A DNA stretch of 64,000 bases. Origin: a virus. The position numbers and the translations under genes were made by a program. The notes beneath the pieces were generated by a model. The model saw only the letters and a list, made by a program, of their open reading frames with translations. It made no database searches and was not told the DNA's origin. The stretch lies in the IMG/VR virus record IMGVR_UViG_3300045988_135716, positions 1 through 64,000 of that record; one strand, given 5' to 3'. Positions within the stretch are counted from its first letter, which is position 1, and the number at the start of each line of letters is the position of its first letter. Positions 21,973 through 33,462 of this stretch are shown here, piece after piece.

Positions 21973-22635
21973 TTAGATAATTTCGTCTAAACTTTTAATA
22001 ATTCTATCTGCTACCTTGTACTCGATAGCTTCTTTTGCAGATAAATACCAGTCATTCTCAAAGTTTTCATAGAATATATCTTCTGGTATATTTGTTCTTG
22101 ATAATACAAATTTACCAAGTTCATCAATTTGTCTTTGATAATTTAAAATAGCAGCAACTACATCATTATAAGAACCACTAAATTGTCCTGCTCCTTTATG
22201 AATGAGGAATTCAGCAGAAGGTAGAGTTAGTCGTTCATGACAAGCAAGATAAATAAAACATCCACTTGAAGCCGCCATACCGACATTTACTCCAACGACA
22301 GGAGTTTGACTAAGTGAGATTGTATCAACAAGACAATTATTTACTTCTAAATCTCCACCAGGACTAAAGAATACAACTTTAATTTTAGTACGTTCATTAA
22401 TAGGAATGTTCTTTTGTTTATCTTCAAAATTCCATTGCATAATCATTTTGGCATATTCCAATGTCATAGTGGTAATCTCATCGTCAATCCAGATTATTCT
22501 ATTTTCGTAATTTTTATAAAATTGAAGTAGAGATGGATCTGGTAATTGAAGGTTTTCTGCATTTTGTGGAATAGCAATATCAAGATATGCTGTATCTGCT
22601 TTTTTTTTATTTGTCATATAACACCTCTCAAACAT
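21973..22635 (-). CDS. ClpP-like serine protease
   Basis: FFSPGGDL...GMAASSGCFIYLAC...LIHKG pattern of the ClpP/S14 family. Confidence 0.75.
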   Translation of the reverse strand: MFERCYMTNKKKADTAYLDIAIPQNAENLQLPDPSLLQFYKNYENRIIWIDDEITTMTLEYAKMIMQWNFEDKQKNIPINERTKIKVVFFSPGGDLEVNNCLVDTISLSQTPVVGVNVGMAASSGCFIYLACHERLTLPSAEFLIHKGAGQFSGSYNDVVAAILNYQRQIDELGKFVLSRTNIPEDIFYENFENDWYLSAKEAIEYKVADRIIKSLDEII

Positions 22636-23560
22636 ATGTATATACTTTATTATTTTTGATGTGAGAAATTGTTTGTACGCTTACATCATATGTATTAGCA
22701 ATGGCAGTCAAAGACATACAGTCAGATAATATTTGATTTTTTATTTCCTTAACTTGATTTAACGTAAGTTTTGAGTTGTTATTTTTCTCTCCTCTTAGTC
22801 TTCCGTTTGATTTTTGAAAAACTAAATCTTTGGTATATTTCGTCCATGTTTTGTGATTCCTTATATCTGAAATAGTTTTTCTATTTACTCCAAATTTGTT
22901 ACCTATTTCTGTATCACTAAAACCATTGTTAATACATTCAATTACATCAACTATATTTTCATCAGTTAATTTATTTAAACCATTACGTCTACCTTTTGTA
23001 CTCGGAAAACAAATATCTTTTGTTAAATATTTCCATGAATGTCCGCTTTTAATACTTGAAACAACACTTTTATTAACATCGTATTTTTTAGATATTTCAG
23101 TATTAGATAATTTGCCATCTATTAAGTCATTAATTATATTTTTTACTTGTTGTTCTGTCAATTTAGAATAGAAACAATTTTCTCCTACATATTTACCTTT
23201 TAATGTATTGGAAATTTTTGATTTTGTTTCATCTGATAACATAGACATATCAGTAGTTGGCATGATATTATATCCTAAATTATCATCAGTACAATTAAAT
23301 TTATTAATATAAAATTGTTCTTTTTCTCTTAAAATATTTTCATCGCACAATTCTACAATTTTGAACTCAAAATTGTCTTTCCCGTGTTTATTCCATGCAT
23401 TTTGAAGATGCTCATTCGTATGAGAATTTTTATTTAATTTATTTAGATGCTGTTTCCATCTAGTATGAATATCTATTGAACTTCCAATGTATATTTTACT
23501 ATTAACGATATTTTTAATTTGATATACGCCTATTAATTTTTCTTTTGCCATAATCATCAC
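22628..23560 (-). CDS. GIY-YIG homing endonuclease with repeated HTH DNA-binding modules
   Basis: GVYQIKN...KIYIGSS...R...H...N...E motifs. The C-terminal half has three similar HTH-like repeats (SHIKNNK, SDIRNHK, SSIKSGH). Confidence 0.85.
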   Translation of the reverse strand: MMIMAKEKLIGVYQIKNIVNSKIYIGSSIDIHTRWKQHLNKLNKNSHTNEHLQNAWNKHGKDNFEFKIVELCDENILREKEQFYINKFNCTDDNLGYNIMPTTDMSMLSDETKSKISNTLKGKYVGENCFYSKLTEQQVKNIINDLIDGKLSNTEISKKYDVNKSVVSSIKSGHSWKYLTKDICFPSTKGRRNGLNKLTDENIVDVIECINNGFSDTEIGNKFGVNRKTISDIRNHKTWTKYTKDLVFQKSNGRLRGEKNNNSKLTLNQVKEIKNQILSDCMSLTAIANTYDVSVQTISHIKNNKVYTYV

Positions 23561-23792: not shown

Positions 23793-25025
23793 TTAATCTA
23801 ACAAATCTGCCATTGCAGCTGTTTCACTACGTTCAGTTTTTAATAGTTGTACATATCCAAATTTCTCATTGCCTGCAAGTTTTTGAACAGCCGATAATAA
23901 ACCATTATTCATCCTAAAAAGAGCAGAATCAGTTTGTTTAAAATCTCCATTCATCCATAGAGCAGATCCTTCACCAACACGACCAATTAATAATTGAACA
24001 TGTTCTTTTGTAAGATTTTCTGCTTCACTTACATAAATTATAGTATTTTTGATATCTCTTCCTCGAATATATCCAAGATGTTCAACATCAACAGTTCCTT
24101 CCAGCATTTTCAATTCAAGACCAGATTCTCCACCAAGATGATCTGCTAATGGCATTGCAAATGGGAGAAGTTTAGAAAATTTGTCCCCAGGAAGGTACCC
24201 AATTTCTTCGGCATCTTTTACACCAATTGTATTTCTGACATACAATAACTTATCAAATTTACCATCCTCGATAAGTTTTAAAGCATTTGCAATCATTAGG
24301 AAGTCTTTACCTGAACCGAATTTCCCTGAAATAATTTTAATTGTTTCATTTGAATTTTGTAACATATCAAATGCCAATACTTGTTGCGGATTTCTTGGTT
24401 TAACTCTTCCGTTGAAATTGCTTTTTATTTGTTTATAAGATAATGCAGAATATTCTTCGCCATTCCATTTACGATAATCAACAACTTCACCATCACTCTT
24501 ACGAATAATCAAATATTCATTTAGAAGAGAATCATACATATTCTCATTTGTATGTAAATAAAAATAACTCATTTCTTCATCAGAAAGAGTTACATCCTTA
24601 TATCCTGTATATTCATCAAGATTCTTAACAAGATTAAGTTCTTGCGTTCCTTTTGTGGGAAGTTTAAAAATATTTTTTGAGATGAATTTACAATTAAGAT
24701 CATCTGTGCAAACGATAATGGAAGAGGATTGATTATACCAATAAGCAGAAGCTAGAATGATATTATCTGGTGTTTCATCCAATGTAAAATCATTAATAAT
24801 TTTTCTGATTTCTGGTGTATATGCAATTACTTCATAATTTTCACTTTGATCAAGTAATCTTGCAATTGACCTCGCTTTATATTTTACATCCCCATCTTTA
24901 TGACCTGATGTTTTAATCGACTCAATTTCTTCAAGAGTCTTCTGAGAAATAACAAATTCCTCTTTGAATGCTGCACTTTGTAAATTTAATAGTGCATTGG
25001 TATCCAGAAATAATTTATATTCCAA
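23793..25025 (-). CDS. PhoH-like ATPase with N-terminal PIN domain (YlaK-like)
   Basis: LFLDTNALLNL (PIN), SGKFGSGKDF (P-loop), GYLPGDKFSKL and GYIRGRDI...SEAENLT motifs. Confidence 0.8.
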   Translation of the reverse strand: MEYKLFLDTNALLNLQSAAFKEEFVISQKTLEEIESIKTSGHKDGDVKYKARSIARLLDQSENYEVIAYTPEIRKIINDFTLDETPDNIILASAYWYNQSSSIIVCTDDLNCKFISKNIFKLPTKGTQELNLVKNLDEYTGYKDVTLSDEEMSYFYLHTNENMYDSLLNEYLIIRKSDGEVVDYRKWNGEEYSALSYKQIKSNFNGRVKPRNPQQVLAFDMLQNSNETIKIISGKFGSGKDFLMIANALKLIEDGKFDKLLYVRNTIGVKDAEEIGYLPGDKFSKLLPFAMPLADHLGGESGLELKMLEGTVDVEHLGYIRGRDIKNTIIYVSEAENLTKEHVQLLIGRVGEGSALWMNGDFKQTDSALFRMNNGLLSAVQKLAGNEKFGYVQLLKTERSETAAMADLLD

Positions 25026-25068
25026 TAAAAGATACCACCTTTCCTATATATTTTATCTTTCTTTTCTG

Positions 25069-25221
25069 TCATTGATATTCCACAACATTTAACCCATTAT
25101 GGTAAGCATCTAATGCCTTATTAATAGCATTACATTCTCTATAGTAGTATTTATTCTTACCACTATATGTCTTAAAAATGTCTTCATGAAACTTAAACCC
25201 TTTCTTCATAAGGTATTCCAT
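25069..25221 (-). CDS. small hypothetical protein
   Basis: ATG at 25221 (MEYLMKKGF...). The frame stays open to an ATT at 25251 preceded by AAGGA. Below the track cutoff. Confidence 0.4.
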   Translation of the reverse strand: MEYLMKKGFKFHEDIFKTYSGKNKYYYRECNAINKALDAYHNGLNVVEYQ

Positions 25222-25290
25222 TTCTTTTTTACTAATTGCTTTTATAACAATTCACGTCCTTTGCATTTATTTCTCCAAGTAGGAGAGTAA

Positions 25291-25379
25291 CGTACAGGGT
25301 AGGATTTGAACCCACGGATGGTTTTATCCATCAAATGCTTTCAAGGCATTCGCATTAAACCTGACTCTGCCACCTGTAC
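25291..25379 (-). tRNA. tRNA-Ser (anticodon UGA), class II with long variable arm
   Basis: Folded by hand: acceptor GTACAGG/CCTGTAC, D arm GCA/TGC, anticodon stem AATGC/GCATT with loop CTTGAAA, variable stem GATGG/CCATC, T arm GTGGG-TTCAAAT-CCTAC. Confidence 0.85.
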
Positions 25380-25511
25380 TGATTTTATCCAACCGCCATG
25401 AGTAGTAGCGGTGATGTTTTTTATGATATATCAAACATACTATTAAAACATATTTTATTAGTCGAATAACGTAATAATCGACACTCATTATTGGATTTTT
25501 ATAATCAAATA

Positions 25512-25540
25512 TTGAATAATCGCATCATAAGTTGTATAAT
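25512..25540 (+). promoter_or_regulatory. sigma-70-type promoter
   Basis: TTGAAT, 17-nt spacer, TATAAT. Confidence 0.55.
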
Positions 25541-25569
25541 TGTAAGAAAAATCCATTGGATGTATACAA

Positions 25570-25767
25570 ATGAGAGATACAACTTTAGATCTTAATCAAA
25601 TTAAAGAATTAGCTGATTATGTAGCTAAAAGAAGTGCTTCTGTTGGTTCTCAACCACTTCAAGTAAAAACATTCGTTAAAAAGTATATGGAAGCATATAC
25701 AGAAGCATTCAACGAAATTTCTGAACTTAATGATCAAAGAAGAAAAGAACAATCTGAAAATTTATAA
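25570..25767 (+). CDS. hypothetical protein (lone plus-strand ORF inside the minus arm)
   Basis: 65-aa helical ORF downstream of the promoter at 25512. Confidence 0.45.
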   Translation: MRDTTLDLNQIKELADYVAKRSASVGSQPLQVKTFVKKYMEAYTEAFNEISELNDQRRKEQSENL

Positions 25768-25929
25768 ATTAATTTTATTATTCTCATTAATTTCTTGAAT
25801 AATTCTATCAAAAAGATGTTTTGTTGTAGCTAAAGTGAATTCTTCATGTGAGAGAATTGTCAAAATTTTATCTTTGATTTTATTTTCATTATCATGCATA
25901 TAAGGTATTCCATCTTTTTCTACATACAT
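25762..25929 (-). CDS. small hypothetical protein
   Basis: 55-aa ORF MYVEKDGIPYMHDN..., convergent with and overlapping the 3' end of 25570..25767. Confidence 0.35.
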   Translation of the reverse strand: MYVEKDGIPYMHDNENKIKDKILTILSHEEFTLATTKHLFDRIIQEINENNKINL

Positions 25930-26020
25930 AATTTACCAACTTTCTAACTCATTTAGGGGACATCTCACAACGTCCCCTATCGCCAGTATATTTAAGAGAG
26001 TTTGATTATTCCTGGCTTAA

Positions 26021-26098
26021 TTGATATATTAGGCTTTGAACCTAAATCTACCAAATCCATACGGAAACAATCGCTCTAACCAATTGAGCTATATATCA
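26021..26098 (-). tRNA. tRNA-like element with non-foldable anticodon arm
   Basis: Canonical acceptor TGATATA/TATATCA, D arm GCTC-AATTGGTTA-GAGC and T arm TTAGG-TTCAAAG-CCTAA. The 26 nt between the D and T arms (normal is about 23) give no 5-bp stem with a 7-nt loop. Confidence 0.5.
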
Positions 26099-27016
26099 TT
26101 ATTATTATTATAAATGCTGAGATTACACATTTATACAGAAGTTCTTTTAGAACATTATGAGTTCTTTCCGTATCCACTATATACCTTACGCATATATAGT
26201 AAACTTCCACAACCGCCTTTTTGAAAGAGTGGCATTTCTCTTTTACTACATGACTACTCTGATTTTATTATTCCATTAACACCGCCGTGCTATAAATCTC
26301 CGCTAAGAGAACTGTGCAAACTCGATCAAACATCTCAAAGTCTTGCGAGACTTATTAATGTCCATATTATACTCTTATAAGTACTATGGAATTAGGTTGT
26401 TTTCACCATGTAGAGGTGTAGACTTTCGCTTTGTATGTAATATTTAAGTATATAAATATTCTTTTACCTTTTAAACGTAAACGGCATTCCACCATTCCCG
26501 ATAATATTATTCTACTTTTTTACAACAAGTTTAAGTCCAAGTTACAGAAGATGTGCTACACCAGACGCTTTCATTCCTTTTGAGAACAAAAATACATCAC
26601 ACCTTCATGTCTTTCAGTTATAATCCCTACTAAACGTTCATATAAGTAATATACTCATATAAATGGATAATGCACTCGATTAATAATTTCTCGCACTATT
26701 TATCCTCCTGATTCACCATTATATGCATATAAGTTTGCATGAGCTATCTGATTTGCGGTCAAAAAGTAATTCTCAGCGGTCGCCCCTAAATCACTTTATC
26801 GCTCCTTATAATACATACTATTTCCGCATAGACTCAATTGCGAAACGCAACCTTTTGAGTTACTGGTATGTCAGTTTTGCTTGAATTGACTATATTTCTA
26901 TAGCGATAGGGTGTAAATCTATCTTTATATACCTCACGATATACTATCTGTGTCAAGCCACATAATCGTAACAATAACATTGTAAAATTTATGATGCGTC
27001 ATAAAACGCATCAAAT
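26099..27016. ncRNA. ORF-free, hairpin-rich segment between tRNA genes; candidate large structured RNA
   Basis: No ORF of 60 aa or more in any frame over about 0.9 kb. Several short stems (aagtct-tgcg-agactt, ttgcg-aaa-cgcaa, gcactg/cagtgc nearby). Flanked by tRNA genes. Strand undetermined. Confidence 0.45.
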
Positions 27017-27087
27017 AGCGGATATTGGATTTGCACCAATGTTCTCTTGGTTATGAGCCAAGCGAGTTAACTACTTCTCTAATCCGC
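27017..27087 (-). tRNA. tRNA-Met-type (anticodon CAU), slightly aberrant
   Basis: Anticodon stem CTTGG/CCAAG with loop CTCATAA; acceptor GCGGAT/ATCCGC; T arm ATTGG-TGCAAAT-CCAAT. The T loop reads TGC rather than TTC, and there is a 7:66 mismatch. Confidence 0.6.
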
Positions 27088-27244
27088 ATTGTTATATTTT
27101 TAATCAACGGAAGCACTGTAGCGAAAGGGGAAGAATCAGTGCAACCGCCGATTATATACCAATTAGTCGCCAAACTAATCATAACTGTATTTCTATCGAG
27201 ATACTCTCAGATATTCATAAGAAACTAAGATTTCTCCTTTTTAA

Positions 27245-27544
27245 CTAATTTTCAAAATAACCATTGAGTTTTCTGTTATAATGTCGTGTGATTTTTGGCT
27301 TTACCCAAATTTTTTCATCACATTGAATATCTTCATATCTATGAATTTCTTGTGATGGAACATATTTACATTCCAAACTCAATCCGTCCAATAATTTAAC
27401 CACTGTTTTATCAGTGGGAGTAGTAGAAGATAAATAGTCGAAAATAATACCCTCTGCCGATTTGAAAACTTTTCGGACTGTCGCTATATCTATATCTTCT
27501 TTTTTTGAAATCTCTTTGATAATATTTTCTTGATTAATCGTCAA
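27245..27544 (-). CDS. divergent HU/IHF-like DNA-binding protein
   Basis: N-terminus INQENIIKEISKKEDIDIATVRKVFKSAEGIIFDYL follows the HU helix-turn-helix pattern. The arm region is divergent. Confidence 0.4.
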   Translation of the reverse strand: MTINQENIIKEISKKEDIDIATVRKVFKSAEGIIFDYLSSTTPTDKTVVKLLDGLSLECKYVPSQEIHRYEDIQCDEKIWVKPKITRHYNRKLNGYFEN

Positions 27545-27651
27545 ATAATATTATTCCTCCCATCTGTTTACGATCGTTTTATTGAGCATATTCATTTGTA
27601 ATTTCAGCGTAGTTGCTGTTGTGGTATGCTCTCCATATAGCCACAAATGAA

Positions 27652-27728
27652 AAAATATTTTCGCCCATGCGCAATGGGTGTTTTTATTTTTGGTAAAATA
27701 TTTTCGCCCATGCGCAATGGGTGTTTTT
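27652..27728 (+). terminator. tandem duplicated intrinsic terminator (two identical 34-nt units, 43-bp period)
   Basis: aaaatattttCGCCCATgcgcaATGGGTGttttt occurs at 27652-27685 and 27695-27728. The U-tract follows the stem only on the plus strand. Confidence 0.6.
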
Positions 27729-27729
27729 G

Positions 27730-30537
27730 CTAAATCGACATTCTTTTTTTTCTACGATATTCTCTATCAATTCTACGCTTTTCTTTTAATTGACATTCTT
27801 CGCATCGACAGGATTTAGTATCTTTTATATCAACCTCAAACCATTCTCCACAATCAACGCACTGAATAAATTTAGTTTTCTTTATAGGAATATTAGACTC
27901 AAGATTTTTTACAACGTATTGACCATAACAAAACCAAAATAATTGTTTTGATCTTTTGTTATTTCCATATAAATATTTAACAAGCATGTCTGTTAATTCT
28001 TCATTTGAATAGCCAAACTTTGAAAATTCATCTCGAATTTGACAAGCAACATATCTCAGATTATCAATATATTCATCTTTCATATTGATTTTGTACCTGT
28101 ACTTTTTATTTAATTCATCATATAAATCAGATACTTCTTTTTTACAAGTTGTATTAACATTGCTCATCATTTTATGATAATCAAGTTTTCCAAGTTGTAA
28201 TCCCCTTGTGTTAATTGCCTTATTTGGAATTACGCTATAAAGTTTATTTACAAAACTTCCATTTCTTTTTTCTACTTGAGTCTTATTTTCATCCTCACTA
28301 ACTTTTTTATCCTTTGCATATTCAAAAAATGCAGGTAATTTTTTATTAGTAAATTCCTTAATCTGTGCAGATATTTCTTTTGGAAACTCTGGTTTATATA
28401 GTGTCTTGGCGAAGTCAATAACAAAATTATTCTGACAACATAATCGCTTTACACAATTAGTAGCATGTTGTTTCTCTTCATCTGTACCGTCAATGAAAAT
28501 GTCACTGTTCCAAATCTTTGAAATATTATTACTATAAATGCCGATATTTCCACCAGTAAATGCAGCATTTAATCCTGCATAAATATTTTTATTATTCAAC
28601 TCGACTGGTTTTGCTTTTTGCATATTATAATATAATGGAACAATACCATTCATATTTCTTTCAGCAATACGAATAAAATCTTGATCAGCTACAACAAGAG
28701 ATTTATCACCGTCAACATCAAATTGAAGAATCTTACTAATTAAATCATATGTACTGGTATAAACGGCATTAGTTGTAAACCATTTTCTGATTTTTTCAAC
28801 TCTTTCTCCGTATACTTTATTGGCAACATTAAATCGTATAGCATGTTCTTTATATAAATGTGGACTTCTAAGACAATCTAATTTATCATAATATTTGAAT
28901 AACCAACAAAATACTTCTTTATCTGCTAATAATCCTGTTGGGGTTTCAATGTGTCCAAACCAATATTCACATGCGGCATAAAAATCAGGAAGTAAAAATG
29001 TATATTTCCCATTAATGTCTAATCGACCACTACGATATTGTTTGAGAAGACTATTTTTTACTTCTCTAATAACATCTTTTGCATATGTATCATTTAATAA
29101 CGCAGGATATATTTTAACCGCTTTTTGAAACGGTGTCATATTATCGTTATATGGGGTAATTCCTAATACTTCCATCATTGTTTTTTCTGATGTACATATA
29201 TTAGTAATCTTTTCGATTGACTTAGATGCTAAAAGTAATATTTCTTCATCCGATATATTGGTAAGAGTTTGCAACATCTGATAGTTGATTTTTGCATTTT
29301 TAACTCTATCTTCTTCTGTATTACATCTACCAGCTTGACAATTATATTTTTTAAAGTATGTTTTGTATTCATCCCATGAATCATAGAACTTGTACATTTT
29401 AAACTGACTCTTTGTAAATATAATTTGAATATTTTCTTCGATGACATCGTGTTCTTTACCATATATATCTTTGATGATAGGAGAGTGGCTGTTTACTTTT
29501 ATAAATTTTACAAAATCAAATACACCTAACAATCCTTTTATCCATGGCGCACGAAACATTGTATTTTTATCCATAAGACACGGTAAGATCATTCCAGCTC
29601 CATCAGTGTGTGGAATTGGCACTAAACCAGTTTTTCTTTCAATTGAATAATTTGTCTCGTCTATAAAATCAAATGTACCAGGAACATTAGTTTCAAAATC
29701 GTCAATTACAATACATCTATCAATATCAAAATCAACCCATTGATCTGTTGCTGAATTTGCTAATGCCATGTAAGCCAAATGTTTATTAACATTATTACCA
29801 CCTTTAGAATTGATTTTATCAATCGTTAATCCACACATTACGGTTTTTTCTACTTGATTCCATACAGATTCTTTTATAAAAACTGCTTTCTTTTTACGAA
29901 TTTGTCCTGCTGATGATGTAAAATATCTATATTTTTCACCTTTATACATAAAACCATAAAAAGATAAATCTTTAAAAACATCGAAATAGTAAACCTGTAC
30001 TACGATAAGAGCATCTGTAAGTTCATCTTTTTTAATTCCAATAGTTCTGGTAAGAGAAGATTCAAAAACTGAAATAACATTTGTATCTTTCAATTCTTCT
30101 TGTCTTAAATATCGCAATGGTATATCTTTTTTTATTTCATTTTCTTCATTATATTTTGCAGTGTTCTCTTTTTCATAAACCTTAGTTGCAAGGATTTTTA
30201 ACAATTTCTCTTTTGACTCATTAGCTTTCTTTCTTTTATGCGCAATTAAACGATTCCAATAATTTAGTTGATTTCTGAGCTGATTAAATTGATCCATATC
30301 AGTTATGGATGTTTTTTCTATATCACTCAAAATATATTCAATATCTTTTTTAATCAACTCATATGTATCATCAGAACATCCAATAGTATTAAAATCTTTT
30401 TTAATTCCATCAAGTTTATTACTAATATAGTTTCGTTCTCTTCGATATTTACAATTCATTTCGTGAAGATACTTTTCTGAATTACTATAAAAATGACCAG
30501 TATCTACACTATACATATTAATTTGCGTGTCTAACAT
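27730..30537 (-). CDS. single-subunit two-barrel RNA polymerase, YonO / RNAi-RdRP-like
   Basis: FDVDGD (DxDGD metal-binding loop, nt 28705-28719) about 45 aa after CLRSPHLYKEH. Upstream is MFRAPWIKGLLGV (F-R-x-P-x-x-KG, nt 29533-29556). C-terminal CxxC...CxxC ribbon. Confidence 0.65.
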   Translation of the reverse strand: MLDTQINMYSVDTGHFYSNSEKYLHEMNCKYRRERNYISNKLDGIKKDFNTIGCSDDTYELIKKDIEYILSDIEKTSITDMDQFNQLRNQLNYWNRLIAHKRKKANESKEKLLKILATKVYEKENTAKYNEENEIKKDIPLRYLRQEELKDTNVISVFESSLTRTIGIKKDELTDALIVVQVYYFDVFKDLSFYGFMYKGEKYRYFTSSAGQIRKKKAVFIKESVWNQVEKTVMCGLTIDKINSKGGNNVNKHLAYMALANSATDQWVDFDIDRCIVIDDFETNVPGTFDFIDETNYSIERKTGLVPIPHTDGAGMILPCLMDKNTMFRAPWIKGLLGVFDFVKFIKVNSHSPIIKDIYGKEHDVIEENIQIIFTKSQFKMYKFYDSWDEYKTYFKKYNCQAGRCNTEEDRVKNAKINYQMLQTLTNISDEEILLLASKSIEKITNICTSEKTMMEVLGITPYNDNMTPFQKAVKIYPALLNDTYAKDVIREVKNSLLKQYRSGRLDINGKYTFLLPDFYAACEYWFGHIETPTGLLADKEVFCWLFKYYDKLDCLRSPHLYKEHAIRFNVANKVYGERVEKIRKWFTTNAVYTSTYDLISKILQFDVDGDKSLVVADQDFIRIAERNMNGIVPLYYNMQKAKPVELNNKNIYAGLNAAFTGGNIGIYSNNISKIWNSDIFIDGTDEEKQHATNCVKRLCCQNNFVIDFAKTLYKPEFPKEISAQIKEFTNKKLPAFFEYAKDKKVSEDENKTQVEKRNGSFVNKLYSVIPNKAINTRGLQLGKLDYHKMMSNVNTTCKKEVSDLYDELNKKYRYKINMKDEYIDNLRYVACQIRDEFSKFGYSNEELTDMLVKYLYGNNKRSKQLFWFCYGQYVVKNLESNIPIKKTKFIQCVDCGEWFEVDIKDTKSCRCEECQLKEKRRIDREYRRKKRMSI

Positions 30538-32301: not shown

Positions 32302-33462
32302 TTATTTCACATCCTTACCTGTTAATTCTCCAAATGAATCTACATTATATACTTCTAGCATCTTTAAAATAGCCCATTCAATTTCTTGTTCATATCCTTC
32401 TTTATTAAGTACATAGATATTTGGAACATTTTGTGGTGGCTTTTTAGGATCTGGTTGTATACTACCTACTTCTCTTTTTATCAAAAGAGGTTTTTGGTTT
32501 TCACTAGAAGAAGTTAAACATTGAATACATTGATTTAATGTATCTTTTGAAATTGCCAATTCTTTTGCCATACTTTCCATGCTGCGAAAAAATGCTTCTG
32601 GTTTAGATTTAGGATTACTTATTGTTTCTTCATTATTTTTATTTTTTGGACGAATAAAAATATAAGAATTGATGTAAAGGAATGCCATTAATATATTCTC
32701 TTTGTTAATACTTGATTCACTCATCATTATGAAGTCAAGTTGCGAAGATGTAATTTTTGAAAATTTATCTGTTGCGTCAAAATTCTCTGGTATAATATCC
32801 ATTTGAATACATTCATTATATCCAACACTATGAATATCAAAATCAGAAGTAATATTAATCATGTTACTTTCATGTAAAAACAATAAACATTTGATTATTT
32901 CAAAAAATATTTTAGGTTTGTGTTTTGTTTGCTTATATTTACATAAATTGAATATCTCTGAAATCACAATATATGATTGATCTTCATAACTTCTATGTTT
33001 ATCAATTAAGATATATATAAGATAAAAAATTCTATGTAAATGATATTTCTTTTTAATGTCTACCTGAATAAAGCTATTTGGAACTCTGGCAAAATATTCT
33101 TTGTGTTTATTCTCAACATATGGATTGTTTATTGGAACAATATCATCAAAATCAAATTGAAACGCTATACCCAAATTAAAATTAGAATTATTATATCCTT
33201 TCAATACTGAATCATATTTTGATATATAAAACTTCTCTAAAGTTCTTGCTTCTTTGTAACTGATATTTTCTTTTATAATTTCATGTGAAAATCCATCATT
33301 CCATCCATATTTCTGAATATCTTTATAAAATTTTTTGTTTTCTCTATATCCATTACCATTACTCCATCTTTCTTTTTCTGCTTGTTGAGTAATCCCAATA
33401 TATTTTTTTCCATTAACTAAATTTGTATGTATATATACTTTGTAATTGTTTATAATATTCAC
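32302..33462 (-). CDS. GIY-YIG domain protein with large uncharacterised C-terminal region
   Basis: YKVYIHTNLVNGKKYIGIT...R...GYRENKKFYKDI...E motifs at the N-terminus. Confidence 0.65.
   Translation of the reverse strand: MNIINNYKVYIHTNLVNGKKYIGITQQAEKERWSNGNGYRENKKFYKDIQKYGWNDGFSHEIIKENISYKEARTLEKFYISKYDSVLKGYNNSNFNLGIAFQFDFDDIVPINNPYVENKHKEYFARVPNSFIQVDIKKKYHLHRIFYLIYILIDKHRSYEDQSYIVISEIFNLCKYKQTKHKPKIFFEIIKCLLFLHESNMINITSDFDIHSVGYNECIQMDIIPENFDATDKFSKITSSQLDFIMMSESSINKENILMAFLYINSYIFIRPKNKNNEETISNPKSKPEAFFRSMESMAKELAISKDTLNQCIQCLTSSSENQKPLLIKREVGSIQPDPKKPPQNVPNIYVLNKEGYEQEIEWAILKMLEVYNVDSFGELTGKDVK

What the first reader, a model, noticed from the sequence alone, without database searches (positions are those of the whole stretch)
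26099..27016. About 0.9-kb ORF-free, hairpin-rich segment bracketed by tRNA genes: candidate large structured RNA (GOLLD/ROOL-like context)
No ORF of 60 aa or more exists in any frame. The composition looks less AT-biased than the neighbouring intergenic DNA. Several compact stems are present: aagtct-tgcg-agactt, ttgcg-aaa-cgcaa, ctat-agcg-atag and tgatgcgt/acgcatca.

The segment lies between a tRNA-like element (26021-26098) and tRNA-Met (27017-27087), with tRNA-Ser nearby.

Established knowledge: the giant ornate RNAs GOLLD and ROOL occur in phages and prophages of Firmicutes and are characteristically adjacent to tRNA genes. I cannot verify their consensus by eye. This could equally be a different, undescribed RNA. 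The strand is unresolved. The tRNAs are on the minus strand, but the only clean bracketing signals (promoter 25512, tandem terminators 27652-27728) are on the plus strand.
Basis: partly seen in the sequence, partly recalled or inferred. Interest (0 to 1): 0.75.

Follow-up and report, generated by a model that had tools for sequence, protein, structure and literature searches.

The report
GOLLD RNA gene in gut phage
The ORF-free stretch between two tRNA genes is a bona fide GOLLD RNA gene on the minus strand of a human-gut phage; GOLLD is a known class of giant phage RNA that self-assembles into hollow cages and whose function is unknown, so this is a correct but unsurprising find.

Summary
Window 26114-26607 on the minus strand matches Rfam GOLLD (RF02032) end to end at 172.4 bits (gathering score 150, E 1e-46). 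No other large-RNA family matches.

The Rfam model covers only the conserved 3' domain. The 353 nt upstream (26960->26608) form a structured 5' domain. In four related phage lineages it has 87 predicted pairs, 32 of them with compensatory double changes. 99.6% of cells are paired, against 34-46% in shifted controls.

The gene lies between tRNA-Met(CAU) and a tRNA-like element. It is co-oriented with a long minus-strand gene block and sits downstream of a YonO-type RNA polymerase gene. The phage is about 171 kb, with about 31% GC in this 64-kb window, and probably infects Clostridia.

By homology to the solved GOLLD structures, the roughly 850-917-nt RNA should be cut out by tRNA-processing enzymes. 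It should then assemble into a homo-oligomeric RNA nanocage. Stoichiometry and function are untested.

Side findings:
- The tRNA-GOLLD block behaves as a recombination cassette.
- Related phages carry a second GOLLD type that Rfam's threshold misses, or none.

This is a new member of a known kind, of modest interest.

The parts
27016..27088 (-). tRNA-Met(CAU), immediately upstream of the GOLLD gene in RNA sense
   Evidence: ARAGORN. Rfam tRNA 60.9 bits. A tRNA-Met or tRNA-Met-like element precedes GOLLD in all type-1 lineages and in env-38 (PMC12286853).
26961..27015 (-). 55-nt leader between tRNA-Met and the conserved core. It holds a terminator-like hairpin (27013->26992, 9 bp, then UAAAUUUU) and an AU-rich spacer. 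Whether it is part of the mature RNA is unknown.
   Evidence: Terminator-like site on the minus strand. Identical in lineages A and B, absent from C and D. The type-2 relatives L129 and L172 also start with a short hairpin right after the upstream tRNA.
26608..26960 (-). GOLLD 5' domain core (353 nt, 16 helices)
   Evidence: RNAalifold on 12 distinct sequences gives 87 pairs, 32 with compensatory double changes. 99.6% of cells are paired against 34-46% when partners are slid, and 32 against 1-4 compensatory pairs.
26875..26960 (-). 5' module: P1 (26958-26953 with 26884-26879) encloses a GUGA-tetraloop hairpin (26943-26928), an invariant UAAAG, a second hairpin (26923-26905) and a GAAA-loop hairpin (26904-26889)
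   Evidence: The element order matches the start of env-38 and the type-2 relatives. Covariance model R1 of this module finds 7 unrelated GOLLD loci at 31-44 bits.
26623..26630 (-). Invariant GUAGGGAU just before the 3' domain. It corresponds to env-38 UAGGGAUA (residues 408-415), one strand of intermolecular bridge B4.
   Evidence: Invariant in alignment A1. env-38 mapping is. No partner was identified here.
26114..26607 (-). GOLLD 3' domain (the region covered by the Rfam model)
   Evidence: RF02032 at 172.4 bits, E 1e-46, model 1-416. Within the clade, 91 predicted pairs, 38 with compensatory changes.
26572..26588 (-). First 3'-domain hairpin with the loop CUCAAAAGG (L14 A-run)
   Evidence: Aligned to the model loop UCAAAAG. 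In env-38, A447 and A448 of this loop make the intermolecular A-minor bridge B6.
26433..26545 (-). Variable linker (J13/15), about 113 nt, 26% GC
   Evidence: Unalignable between lineages A and B, which are 93-97% identical in the flanking aligned blocks. Modelled as an insertion in the Rfam alignment. GC.
26407..26413 (-). Pseudoknot 5' strand CUACAUG
   Evidence: Rfam [[[ ]]] pairs. It pairs with CAUGUAG at 26252-26246. It covaries in lineage D (CUGUAUG/CAUACAG) and in L156 (CAUGCAAU/AUUGCAUG).
26246..26252 (-). Pseudoknot 3' strand CAUGUAG
   Evidence: As above.
26338..26353 (-). Hairpin AAGUCU-CGCAA-GACUU (L20-type loop).
   Evidence: Aligned to the model loop CGCAA. The stem covaries in lineage D. 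GC in the loop matches GC in J13/15 AAAGCGAAAG (26432-26420), the pair of elements that forms the L20-J13/15 kissing bridge B7 in env-38.
26279..26311 (-). P21a (UUCUC-UUAGCG-GAGA) and P21b (GCAC-GGCG-GUGU) hairpins. Both loops carry a GC dinucleotide.
   Evidence: Rfam alignment. Both stems show compensatory changes between lineages and the loops are conserved. In env-38, self-complementary GC in L21a and L21b forms bridges B8 and B9.
26116..26128 (-). Terminal motif GUGUAAUCUCAGC (L27 region)
   Evidence: The same motif retrieved 119 viral loci.
26099..26113 (-). 15-nt AU spacer between the end of the GOLLD model and the downstream tRNA-like element
   Evidence: Sequence. Length varies by 3 nt among near-identical relatives.
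26021..26098 (-). tRNA-like element (ARAGORN: Arg-CCG). Acceptor, D and T arms are intact. The anticodon arm is extended, with a 4-5-nt loop.
   Evidence: 45.4 bits; fold. ARAGORN does not call it in lineage B.
25033..27165 (-). tRNA-GOLLD cassette: tRNA-Ser, two small ORFs, the tRNA-like element, GOLLD, tRNA-Met and 77 nt upstream
   Evidence: 98-99% identical, with the same sharp ends, in L008, L037 and L120 (MT835469.1). Their flanks are unrelated at blastn level.

Best explanation
The segment is a GOLLD RNA gene on the minus strand of a roughly 171-kb human-gut phage.

Shown here:
- The conserved 3' domain (26607->26114) matches the GOLLD covariance model.
- A 353-nt 5' domain (26960->26608) has a fold supported by covariation. 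Its first module has the same architecture as other GOLLD RNAs.
- The two domains are joined by a fast-evolving linker.
- The gene sits tightly between tRNA-Met and a tRNA-like element.

Inferred from established knowledge of the family (cryo-EM of env-38 and Streptococcus agalactiae GOLLD):
- The RNA is transcribed with the tRNA cluster.
- RNase Z-type cleavage after tRNA-Met and RNase P cleavage before the downstream tRNA-like element release it.
- It folds into a 5' 'cap' domain and a 3' 'ring' domain.
- It self-assembles without protein into a closed dihedral cage of about 10-14 copies, held together by A-minor contacts and kissing loops. The variable linker points inward.

What the cage does is not known for any GOLLD. 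The most likely role is an accessory function during lytic growth linked to tRNA or translation, such as sequestering or scaffolding. The RNA is dispensable, because close relatives lack it.
For: Identity and strand:
- Rfam RF02032 at 172.4 bits against GA 150, E 1e-46, complete model, minus strand only.
- The minus-strand fold has z = -3.5 against -0.9 for the plus strand.

Structure:
- The 3' domain keeps the model's pseudoknot, the L14 A-run, the CGCAA loop, GC loops in P21a and P21b, and the terminal GUGUAAUCUCAGC.
- Within the clade, 91 pairs, 38 with compensatory changes.
- 5' domain: 87 pairs, 32 compensatory, 99.6% of cells paired against 34-46% in slid controls.
- Many G-U pairs would be A-C on the other strand.
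- The 5' module recurs in env-38, in type-2 relatives and in 7 unrelated loci that score 245-269 bits for GOLLD.
- The linker is unalignable between lineages that are 93-97% identical in the flanking aligned blocks.

Context:
- Phage genome.
- Co-oriented with minus-strand genes at 1-39 kb.
- tRNA bracketing is conserved although the tRNA identities change between lineages.

Family properties (14-mer and 12-mer cages, bridges, tRNA context, rise in expression at lysis) come from PMC12286853 and PMC12990946.
Against: - The score is only 22 bits above the gathering threshold and well below canonical members at 245-269 bits.
- Covariation rests on four lineages, so the number of independent events is small.
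- No transcription, processing or assembly data exist for this RNA.
- No convincing sigma-70-type promoter was found on the minus strand upstream of tRNA-Met. A terminator-like hairpin sits between tRNA-Met and the core, so the transcription unit is uncertain.
- The partner of the invariant GUAGGGAU (bridge B4 in env-38) could not be found, and 5'-domain bridges could not be mapped. Cage formation and copy number are therefore extrapolated.
- 38 of 76 related phages show no GOLLD at this locus. One relative with 98% identical YonO protein has a TnpB element in its place. So it is not essential.
Confidence: 0.9

Rival explanations
1. A decaying GOLLD relic. It is recognisable by the model but no longer under selection or functional.
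For: The score of 172 bits is close to GA 150 and far below canonical members at 245-269 bits. Relatives have lost the locus.
Against: Substitutions between lineages are overwhelmingly compensatory, with 32 and 38 double-change pairs and almost no broken pairs. The structured cores stay 93-97% identical in the aligned blocks while the linker is scrambled. Loops used for inter-subunit bridges are invariant.
Confidence: 0.04
2. The functional product is a plus-strand transcript. It would run from the sigma-70-like promoters at 25478-25540 to the tandem terminators at 27662-27723, antisense to the tRNAs.
For: Promoter-like sites scoring 11/12 and 10/12 and two clean terminator-like hairpins are on the plus strand.
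Against: No Rfam family matches the plus strand. The plus-strand fold is no better than shuffles, z = -0.9. The conserved helices contain many G-U pairs that cannot form on the plus strand. The promoters sit directly in front of a 65-aa plus-strand ORF (25570-25767), which explains them.
Confidence: 0.02
3. A different large RNA (ROOL-like or undescribed), or a degraded protein-coding gene.
For: ROOL and GOLLD share the phage and tRNA context. The 5' domain has no primary-sequence match outside its own clade.
Against: GOLLD is the only large-RNA family hit at E <= 1. The 5' module is shared with other GOLLDs. There is no ORF above 53 aa, and the substitution pattern follows base pairs.
Confidence: 0.01
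4. It is a GOLLD, but it works chiefly in cis as a tRNA-operon element. The cage would hold back or time the maturation of the covalently attached tRNA-Met and tRNA-like element ('inhibited storage'), rather than acting as a free cage.
For: Tight tRNA bracketing is conserved while the tRNA identity changes. The downstream element has lost a normal anticodon arm yet keeps acceptor, D and T arms. The cassette's neighbours encode RNA nucleases: PIN-PhoH here and a beta-CASP RNase-J-like protein in L008. The idea is raised in PMC12990946.
Against: Here the tRNAs flank the RNA rather than sitting in the inward-facing linker. There are no processing data. L174 keeps tRNA-Met and tRNA-Lys adjacent without any GOLLD.
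Confidence: 0.15

Closest known systems
GOLLD RNA, Rfam RF02032 (solved example: env-38, 833 nt, 14-mer cage, PDB 9MEE; PMC12286853)
   Same: - Full-length match to the 3'-domain model, including the pseudoknot.
- L14 A-run, CGCAA loop with a J13/15 GC, and both P21a and P21b loops with GC.
- Terminal GUGUAAUCUCAGC.
- A variable linker between two domains.
- A 5' start built as P1 [GNRA hairpin - UAAAG - hairpin].
- GUAGGGAU before the 3' domain.
- Located directly downstream of tRNA-Met in phage DNA.
   Different: - The 5' domain is not alignable in sequence beyond the first module and the junction motif.
- It has an extra GAAA hairpin inside P1.
- It has a 55-nt leader with a terminator-like hairpin.
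- The linker is about 113 nt, against 42 disordered nt in env-38.
- The partner for bridge B4 was not found.
- The bit score is modest at 172.
Streptococcus-type GOLLD (about 700 nt; S. agalactiae GOLLD forms a 12-mer, PDB 9L0R; PMC12990946). Examples seen here: S. suis L213 and loci L015, L062, L065, L088, L099.
   Same: They share the UGGCUU..CACAGAUA-GNRA-AAAG...GUCAAUC..AAGCAA 5' module, at 31-44 bits with model R1. They are tightly bracketed by tRNAs.
   Different: Those RNAs are about 685-715 nt and begin 4-5 nt after the upstream tRNA. They score 245-269 bits. According to the review, Sag GOLLD lacks P21b, which the window RNA has.
Type-2 GOLLD of related gut phages (L129-like and L172-like, 26 loci)
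   Same: Same genomic slot, downstream of the YonO gene and between two tRNAs. Similar length of about 830 nt and the same two-domain plan.
   Different: A different 5' domain that is closer to env-38 (GUCGUUAAAUAAA...GGAUAAAG). The 3' domain scores only 83-105 bits, below Rfam's gathering score. No nhmmer similarity to the window RNA.
ROOL RNA
   Same: A large phage or prophage RNA near tRNA genes that forms an RNA-only cage (PMC12286853).
   Different: Unrelated sequence and fold. No ROOL match in the region at E <= 1.

Membership tests
GOLLD (RF02032) | Match to the curated covariance model at or above its gathering score | tested here: met
   172.4 bits against 150, E 1e-46, model 1-416 complete, minus strand
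GOLLD (RF02032) | Conserved 3'-domain secondary structure maintained by compensatory change | tested here: met
   91 predicted pairs, 38 with changes on both sides, across 12 distinct sequences in 4 lineages
GOLLD (RF02032) | 3'-domain pseudoknot | tested here: met
   CUACAUG (26413-26407) pairs with CAUGUAG (26252-26246). It covaries in lineage D and in L156.
GOLLD (RF02032) | Structured but variable 5' domain of about 300-420 nt | tested here: met
   353-nt core, 16 helices, 32 compensatory pairs, 99.6% of cells paired against 34-46% in slid controls. Not alignable by sequence outside the clade.
GOLLD (RF02032) | 5' start module: P1 enclosing a GNRA hairpin, AUAAAG and a hairpin, as in env-38 | tested here: met
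   Same element order in the window, L129, L172 and env-38. Model R1 finds it in 7 canonical GOLLD loci.
GOLLD (RF02032) | Loops that make the inter-subunit bridges of the 3' ring (L14 A-run; L20 with J13/15; L21a; L21b) | tested here: met
   CUCAAAAGG, CGCAA with AAAGCG, UUAGCG and GGCG are all present, and conserved in lineages A-D apart from one substitution in the L20 loop (CACAA in L145). This shows presence of sequence only, not of contacts.
GOLLD (RF02032) | 5'-domain bridges (for example B4: UAGGGAUA with an AUCCC loop) | tested here: inconclusive
   GUAGGGAU is invariant, but no free complementary loop was found. The candidate UAUCC is used in a covarying intramolecular helix.
GOLLD (RF02032) | Poorly conserved linker between the domains | tested here: met
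   26433-26545 is scrambled between lineages that are 93-97% identical in the flanking aligned blocks
GOLLD (RF02032) | Phage or prophage location next to tRNA genes | tested here: met
   IMG/VR contig of 171 kb and a GenBank phage record. Phage genes surround it. tRNAs lie on both sides.
GOLLD (RF02032) | Protein-free homo-oligomeric nanocage (10-14 copies) | not testable with these tools
   Needs in-vitro transcription followed by mass photometry or cryo-EM
GOLLD (RF02032) | Expression that rises during phage lytic growth | not testable with these tools
   No expression data are available here. The property is reported for the family in PMC12286853.
ROOL / HEARO / raiA / OLE | Match to the family covariance model | tested here: not met
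   No hit at E <= 1 in 25200-27800 on either strand, and none at gathering score in the whole window

The most novel reading that the evidence does not exclude
The tRNA-GOLLD block (25033-27165) is an exchangeable cassette that moves by recombination among mosaic gut Clostridia phages. At one conserved slot, phages carry GOLLD type 1, a very different GOLLD type 2, nothing, or a TnpB element. The flanking tRNAs decay into pure processing handles. That pattern of rapid turnover resembles accessory or counter-defence loci. It would point to GOLLD cages acting in phage-host or phage-phage conflict, for example buffering tRNA- or ribosome-targeting defences, rather than in housekeeping.
Probability: 0.2. 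Interest if true: 0.6.

Novelty: new member of a known kind. Interest (0 to 1): 0.3.

Why it matters
GOLLD is one of the largest bacterial or phage non-coding RNAs. Its cage architecture was solved only in 2025 and its function is still unknown.

This locus adds a full-length member from a human-gut phage family, with a 5' domain fold supported by covariation. It also supplies a natural comparison set at a single genomic slot:
- 12 relatives with this type
- 26 with a second type that Rfam's threshold misses
- 38 with none

That set could be used to look for genes or hosts that co-vary with GOLLD presence. It could also guide the choice of constructs that test how 5'-domain variation sets cage stoichiometry. 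The finding does not change what is known about the family.

Tried and rejected
- blastn of the region against 50,697 phage records found only one near-identical unannotated record. There is no annotation to borrow.
- nhmmer with the 5' domain against 119 GOLLD-motif loci found only its own clade. Relatives had to be reached through the neighbouring YonO protein instead.
- A regex for the terminal motif missed the type-2 RNAs. They were found only because two tRNAs lay about 830 nt apart and a relaxed Rfam search was run.
- Residue-level mapping of the env-38 bridges was limited. The sequence recovered from the supplementary PDF is 816 nt instead of 833, so local offsets had to be fitted. Mapping was done only for unambiguous motifs.
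- MAFFT could not align the type-1, type-2 and env-38 5' modules correctly. The comparison is by element order, plus a type-1-only covariance model.
- RNAalifold cannot draw the pseudoknot and nests it instead. The Rfam annotation was used for that helix.
- No convincing minus-strand sigma-70 promoter was found upstream of tRNA-Met. The phage encodes its own YonO-type polymerase, whose promoters this scan does not cover.
- A possible closing helix between the leader (GUUAUUGUUAC) and the 3' tail (UAAUAAUAAUAA) appears in the MFE fold. It is AU-only and has no comparative support, so it is not claimed.
- The original GOLLD paper and the Mycobacterium tRNA-array paper are not in the held library. 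Family properties are cited from PMC12286853 and PMC12990946.

Full report
**What is at the coordinates**

ARAGORN and Rfam find three minus-strand tRNA genes:
- tRNA-Ser(UGA) at 25291-25379
- an element called tRNA-Arg(CCG) at 26021-26098
- tRNA-Met(CAU) at 27016-27088

Between the last two there is no ORF longer than 53 aa.

A scan of the whole window against Rfam 15 at gathering thresholds returns those three tRNAs and one other hit. GOLLD (RF02032) matches 26114-26607 on the minus strand at 172.4 bits against a gathering score of 150. The E-value is 1e-46 and all model positions 1-416 are matched.

A permissive rescan of 25200-27800 gives nothing else of note. There is no match to ROOL, HEARO, raiA or OLE.

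As single-stranded RNA, the minus strand folds to -220.9 kcal/mol, z = -3.5, and none of 20 shuffles fold as well. The plus strand folds to -163.4 kcal/mol, z = -0.9.

The composition remark is weak. GC is 0.33 against a window mean of 0.31.

**The 3' domain**

The Rfam model covers only the conserved 3' half of GOLLD. The alignment shows these family elements in register (coordinates):
- the first hairpin, with a CUCAAAAGG loop (26588-26572)
- a long insertion where the model has its variable linker
- AAAGCGAAAGUCU (26432-26420)
- the pseudoknot CUACAUG/CAUGUAG (26413-26407 with 26252-26246)
- the CGCAA hairpin (26353-26338)
- two small hairpins with GC-containing loops (26311-26279)
- the terminal GUGUAAUCUCAGC (26128-26116)

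In the env-38 cryo-EM structure, the corresponding loops form the inter-subunit bridges (PMC12286853):
- B6: A-minor contact by the L14 adenines
- B7: L20 with J13/15
- B8 and B9: self-complementary GC in L21a and L21b

Their presence here is shown. The contacts themselves are inferred.

**The 5' domain**

Primary sequence finds no relative of 26608-27015 outside a narrow clade. I reached relatives through the upstream gene. 79 IMG/VR loci encode homologues of the 935-aa protein.

nhmmer then found full-length homologues of the RNA in four lineages:
- A: the window clade, at least 98.7% identical
- B: about 90% identical
- C
- D

All of the lineage B, C and D loci submitted to Rfam pass the GOLLD threshold at 167-196 bits.

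An alignment of 12 distinct sequences over 26965->26607 gives an RNAalifold consensus of 87 pairs in 16 helices. 32 of those pairs show changes on both sides that keep the pair.

In the pair-count controls, 99.6% of cells are standard pairs, against 34-46% when partners are slid by 1-3 columns. Compensatory pairs number 32, against 1-4 in the slid controls. The same treatment of the 3' domain gives 91 pairs, 38 of them compensatory.

One caveat applies. There are four lineages, so the events are few. Even so, almost nothing is broken.

The linker (26545->26433) is scrambled even between lineages A and B. Those two are 93-97% identical in the flanking aligned blocks.

**Is the 5' domain a GOLLD 5' domain?**

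The first 86 nt are built as follows:
- P1 (GCUUGA/UCAAGC), which encloses the rest
- a GUGA-tetraloop hairpin
- an invariant UAAAG
- a second hairpin
- a GAAA hairpin

env-38 begins in the same way: P1, UAC-GAAA-GUA, GGAUAAAG, hairpin. So do the relatives L129 and L172. In env-38, the GNRA adenines A34 and A35 make the only bridge between the 5' and 3' domains of neighbouring chains, B1.

A covariance model of this module (R1) finds seven unrelated loci at 31-44 bits. In each, the hit lies about 220-315 nt upstream of a 245-269-bit Rfam GOLLD 3' domain, and the whole RNA is bracketed by tRNAs a few nucleotides away. A genome scan with a sequence pattern of the same module found it in a further such locus, from Streptococcus suis (L213).

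The invariant GUAGGGAU (26630-26623) corresponds to env-38 UAGGGAUA 408-415, one strand of bridge B4. I could not find its partner.

The 5' domain is therefore a recognisable variant of the family's variable half. It is closest to the Streptococcus-type start.

**Ends and transcription**

Conservation begins at 26960. The 55 nt between tRNA-Met and that point hold a 9-bp hairpin followed by UAAAUUUU, which scores as terminator-like. These 55 nt are identical in lineages A and B and absent from C and D.

In C and D the core follows directly after a degenerate tRNA-Met-like element with a CAU anticodon loop.

The downstream 'tRNA-Arg' keeps acceptor, D and T arms. Its anticodon arm, however, is 4 bp, an internal loop, 3 bp, and a 4-5-nt loop. 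ARAGORN does not call it in lineage B. It is probably a tRNA-like processing handle.

The identity of the flanking tRNAs changes between lineages (Met/Arg-like, Met-like/Ile, Asn/Pro, Met/Lys), but the bracketing does not. This supports excision by RNase Z and RNase P, though only by inference.

No sigma-70-like promoter was found upstream on the minus strand. The phage has its own polymerase.

**Genome context**

The window is identical over the compared stretches to IMG/VR contig 3300045988_128882, which is 171,277 bp.

Genes from position 1 to about 39 kb are on the minus strand.

The upstream gene (27730-30537) is a YonO-type single-subunit RNA polymerase:
- Pfam RdRP at 46.8 bits
- 44% identity to SPbeta yonO
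- 51.5% identity to Clostridium phage D-1873

The downstream gene (23793-25025) encodes a PIN-PhoH protein.

A full-length type-1 homologue lies on a contig binned to an uncultured Sarcina species, at 27% GC. With the window's 31% GC, this hints at a Clostridiaceae host. It is not proof.

**Turnover at the locus**

Among 76 relatives with at least 2.5 kb downstream of the polymerase gene:
- 12 carry the window's type
- 26 carry a second type
- 38 give no hit

Rfam scores the second type at only 83-105 bits, though with E-values of 1e-20 to 1e-26.

Four of the 38 were checked with Rfam at E <= 0.01 and are negative. L174 has tRNA-Met and tRNA-Lys side by side. L146 has a YonO protein 98% identical to the window's, but a TnpB (IS605-family) element where the cassette should be.

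Conversely, the block 25033-27165 is 98-99% identical, with the same sharp ends, in L008, L037 and GenBank MT835469.1. Their adjacent DNA is unrelated at blastn level. In L008 the neighbours are an unrelated 956-aa ORF and a beta-CASP/RMMBL nuclease.

The RNA is therefore accessory and is exchanged as a module.

**Verdict**

The finding is a correct identification of a GOLLD RNA gene, a known family.

Shown here: family membership, strand, domain boundaries, a 5' fold supported by covariation, and the tRNA context.

Inferred: tRNA-type processing and assembly into an RNA-only cage.

Unknown, as for the whole family: what the cage does.

Novelty: new member of a known kind. Interest is modest.

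Noticed in passing
window 27730-30537 (-): A 935-aa YonO-type single-subunit RNA polymerase lies directly upstream of the cassette. It hits Pfam RdRP PF05183 and phrog_8308, and is 44% identical to SPbeta yonO and 51.5% to Clostridium phage D-1873. Several relatives (L199, L182, L194, L195) carry insertions of about 1-1.4 kb inside this gene. These could be an intron, an intein or a homing-endonuclease insertion.
   Followed up: partly
window 25033-27165; L008, L037, L120 (MT835469.1): The tRNA-Ser...GOLLD...tRNA-Met block is 98-99% identical, with identical sharp boundaries, in phage genomes whose flanking DNA shows no blastn similarity. It looks like a recombination cassette.
   Followed up: partly
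L129 9758-10590, L172 9481-10313 and 24 further related loci: A second GOLLD type occupies the same slot between two tRNAs. It scores only 83-105 bits against Rfam's gathering score of 150 (E 1e-20 to 1e-26), so standard annotation misses it. Its 5' start (GUCGUUAAAUAAA...GGAUAAAG) is closer to env-38 than the window's is.
   Followed up: partly
L146 9370-11222: In a relative whose YonO protein is 98% identical, the tRNA-Met/GOLLD/tRNA-like block is replaced by an IS605-family TnpB (OrfB_IS605 plus Cas12f1-like TNB, with a separated N-terminal HTH ORF) and an unknown 203-aa ORF.
   Followed up: yes
L174 9329-9483: tRNA-Met and tRNA-Lys lie 8 nt apart with no GOLLD. L172 has tRNA-Met, then GOLLD, then tRNA-Lys. 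This looks like an 'empty site' configuration.
   Followed up: partly
window 26021-26098 (-): The element called tRNA-Arg(CCG) has intact acceptor, D and T arms. Its anticodon arm is extended (4 bp, internal loop, 3 bp) with a 4-5-nt loop. It is probably a non-decoding tRNA-like element. The outer stem covaries between lineages A and B.
   Followed up: partly
window 27652-27685 and 27695-27728 (+): A 34-nt direct repeat. Each copy is a plus-strand terminator-like hairpin (CGCCCATGCGCAATGGGTG followed by a T-run). The repeat sits between the YonO stop codon and the 99-aa ORF. It is not clear which transcript it terminates.
   Followed up: no
window 25478-25767 (+): Two strong sigma-70-like promoter matches (11/12 and 10/12) precede a 65-aa plus-strand ORF. 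The ORF lies inside the otherwise minus-strand tRNA/GOLLD cassette and has no Pfam or PHROG hit. A 55-aa minus-strand ORF (25762-25929) converges on it.
   Followed up: no
window 23793-25025 (-); L008 6625-7737: The gene just downstream of the cassette encodes a PIN-PhoH protein here. In L008 the same position encodes a beta-CASP/RMMBL (RNase-J-like) protein. Two unrelated predicted RNA nucleases sit next to the same RNA cassette.
   Followed up: no
window 22628-23560 (-) and 32302-33462 (-): Two GIY-YIG homing-endonuclease-like genes lie in the neighbourhood.
   Followed up: no
L205 1303-2149 (-) (uncultured Sarcina sp. MAG, CAUWNL010000023.1): A full-length type-1 GOLLD homologue (nhmmer 139.6 bits) lies in a tRNA cluster on a 27%-GC contig. 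This hints at the host. The locus also holds an ARAGORN 'tRNA-SeC(tca)' call and a 4-base-anticodon call.
   Followed up: no
L137 300-366 (-): A sub-threshold twister-P1 ribozyme match (48 bits against a gathering score of 67.2, E 1.3e-7) in a related phage locus.
   Followed up: no
window 26969-26979 with 26099-26110 (-): The MFE fold pairs the leader GUUAUUGUUAC with the 3' tail UAAUAAUAAUAA, which would close the whole RNA. The pairing is AU-only (-7.5 kcal/mol) and has no comparative support.
   Followed up: partly
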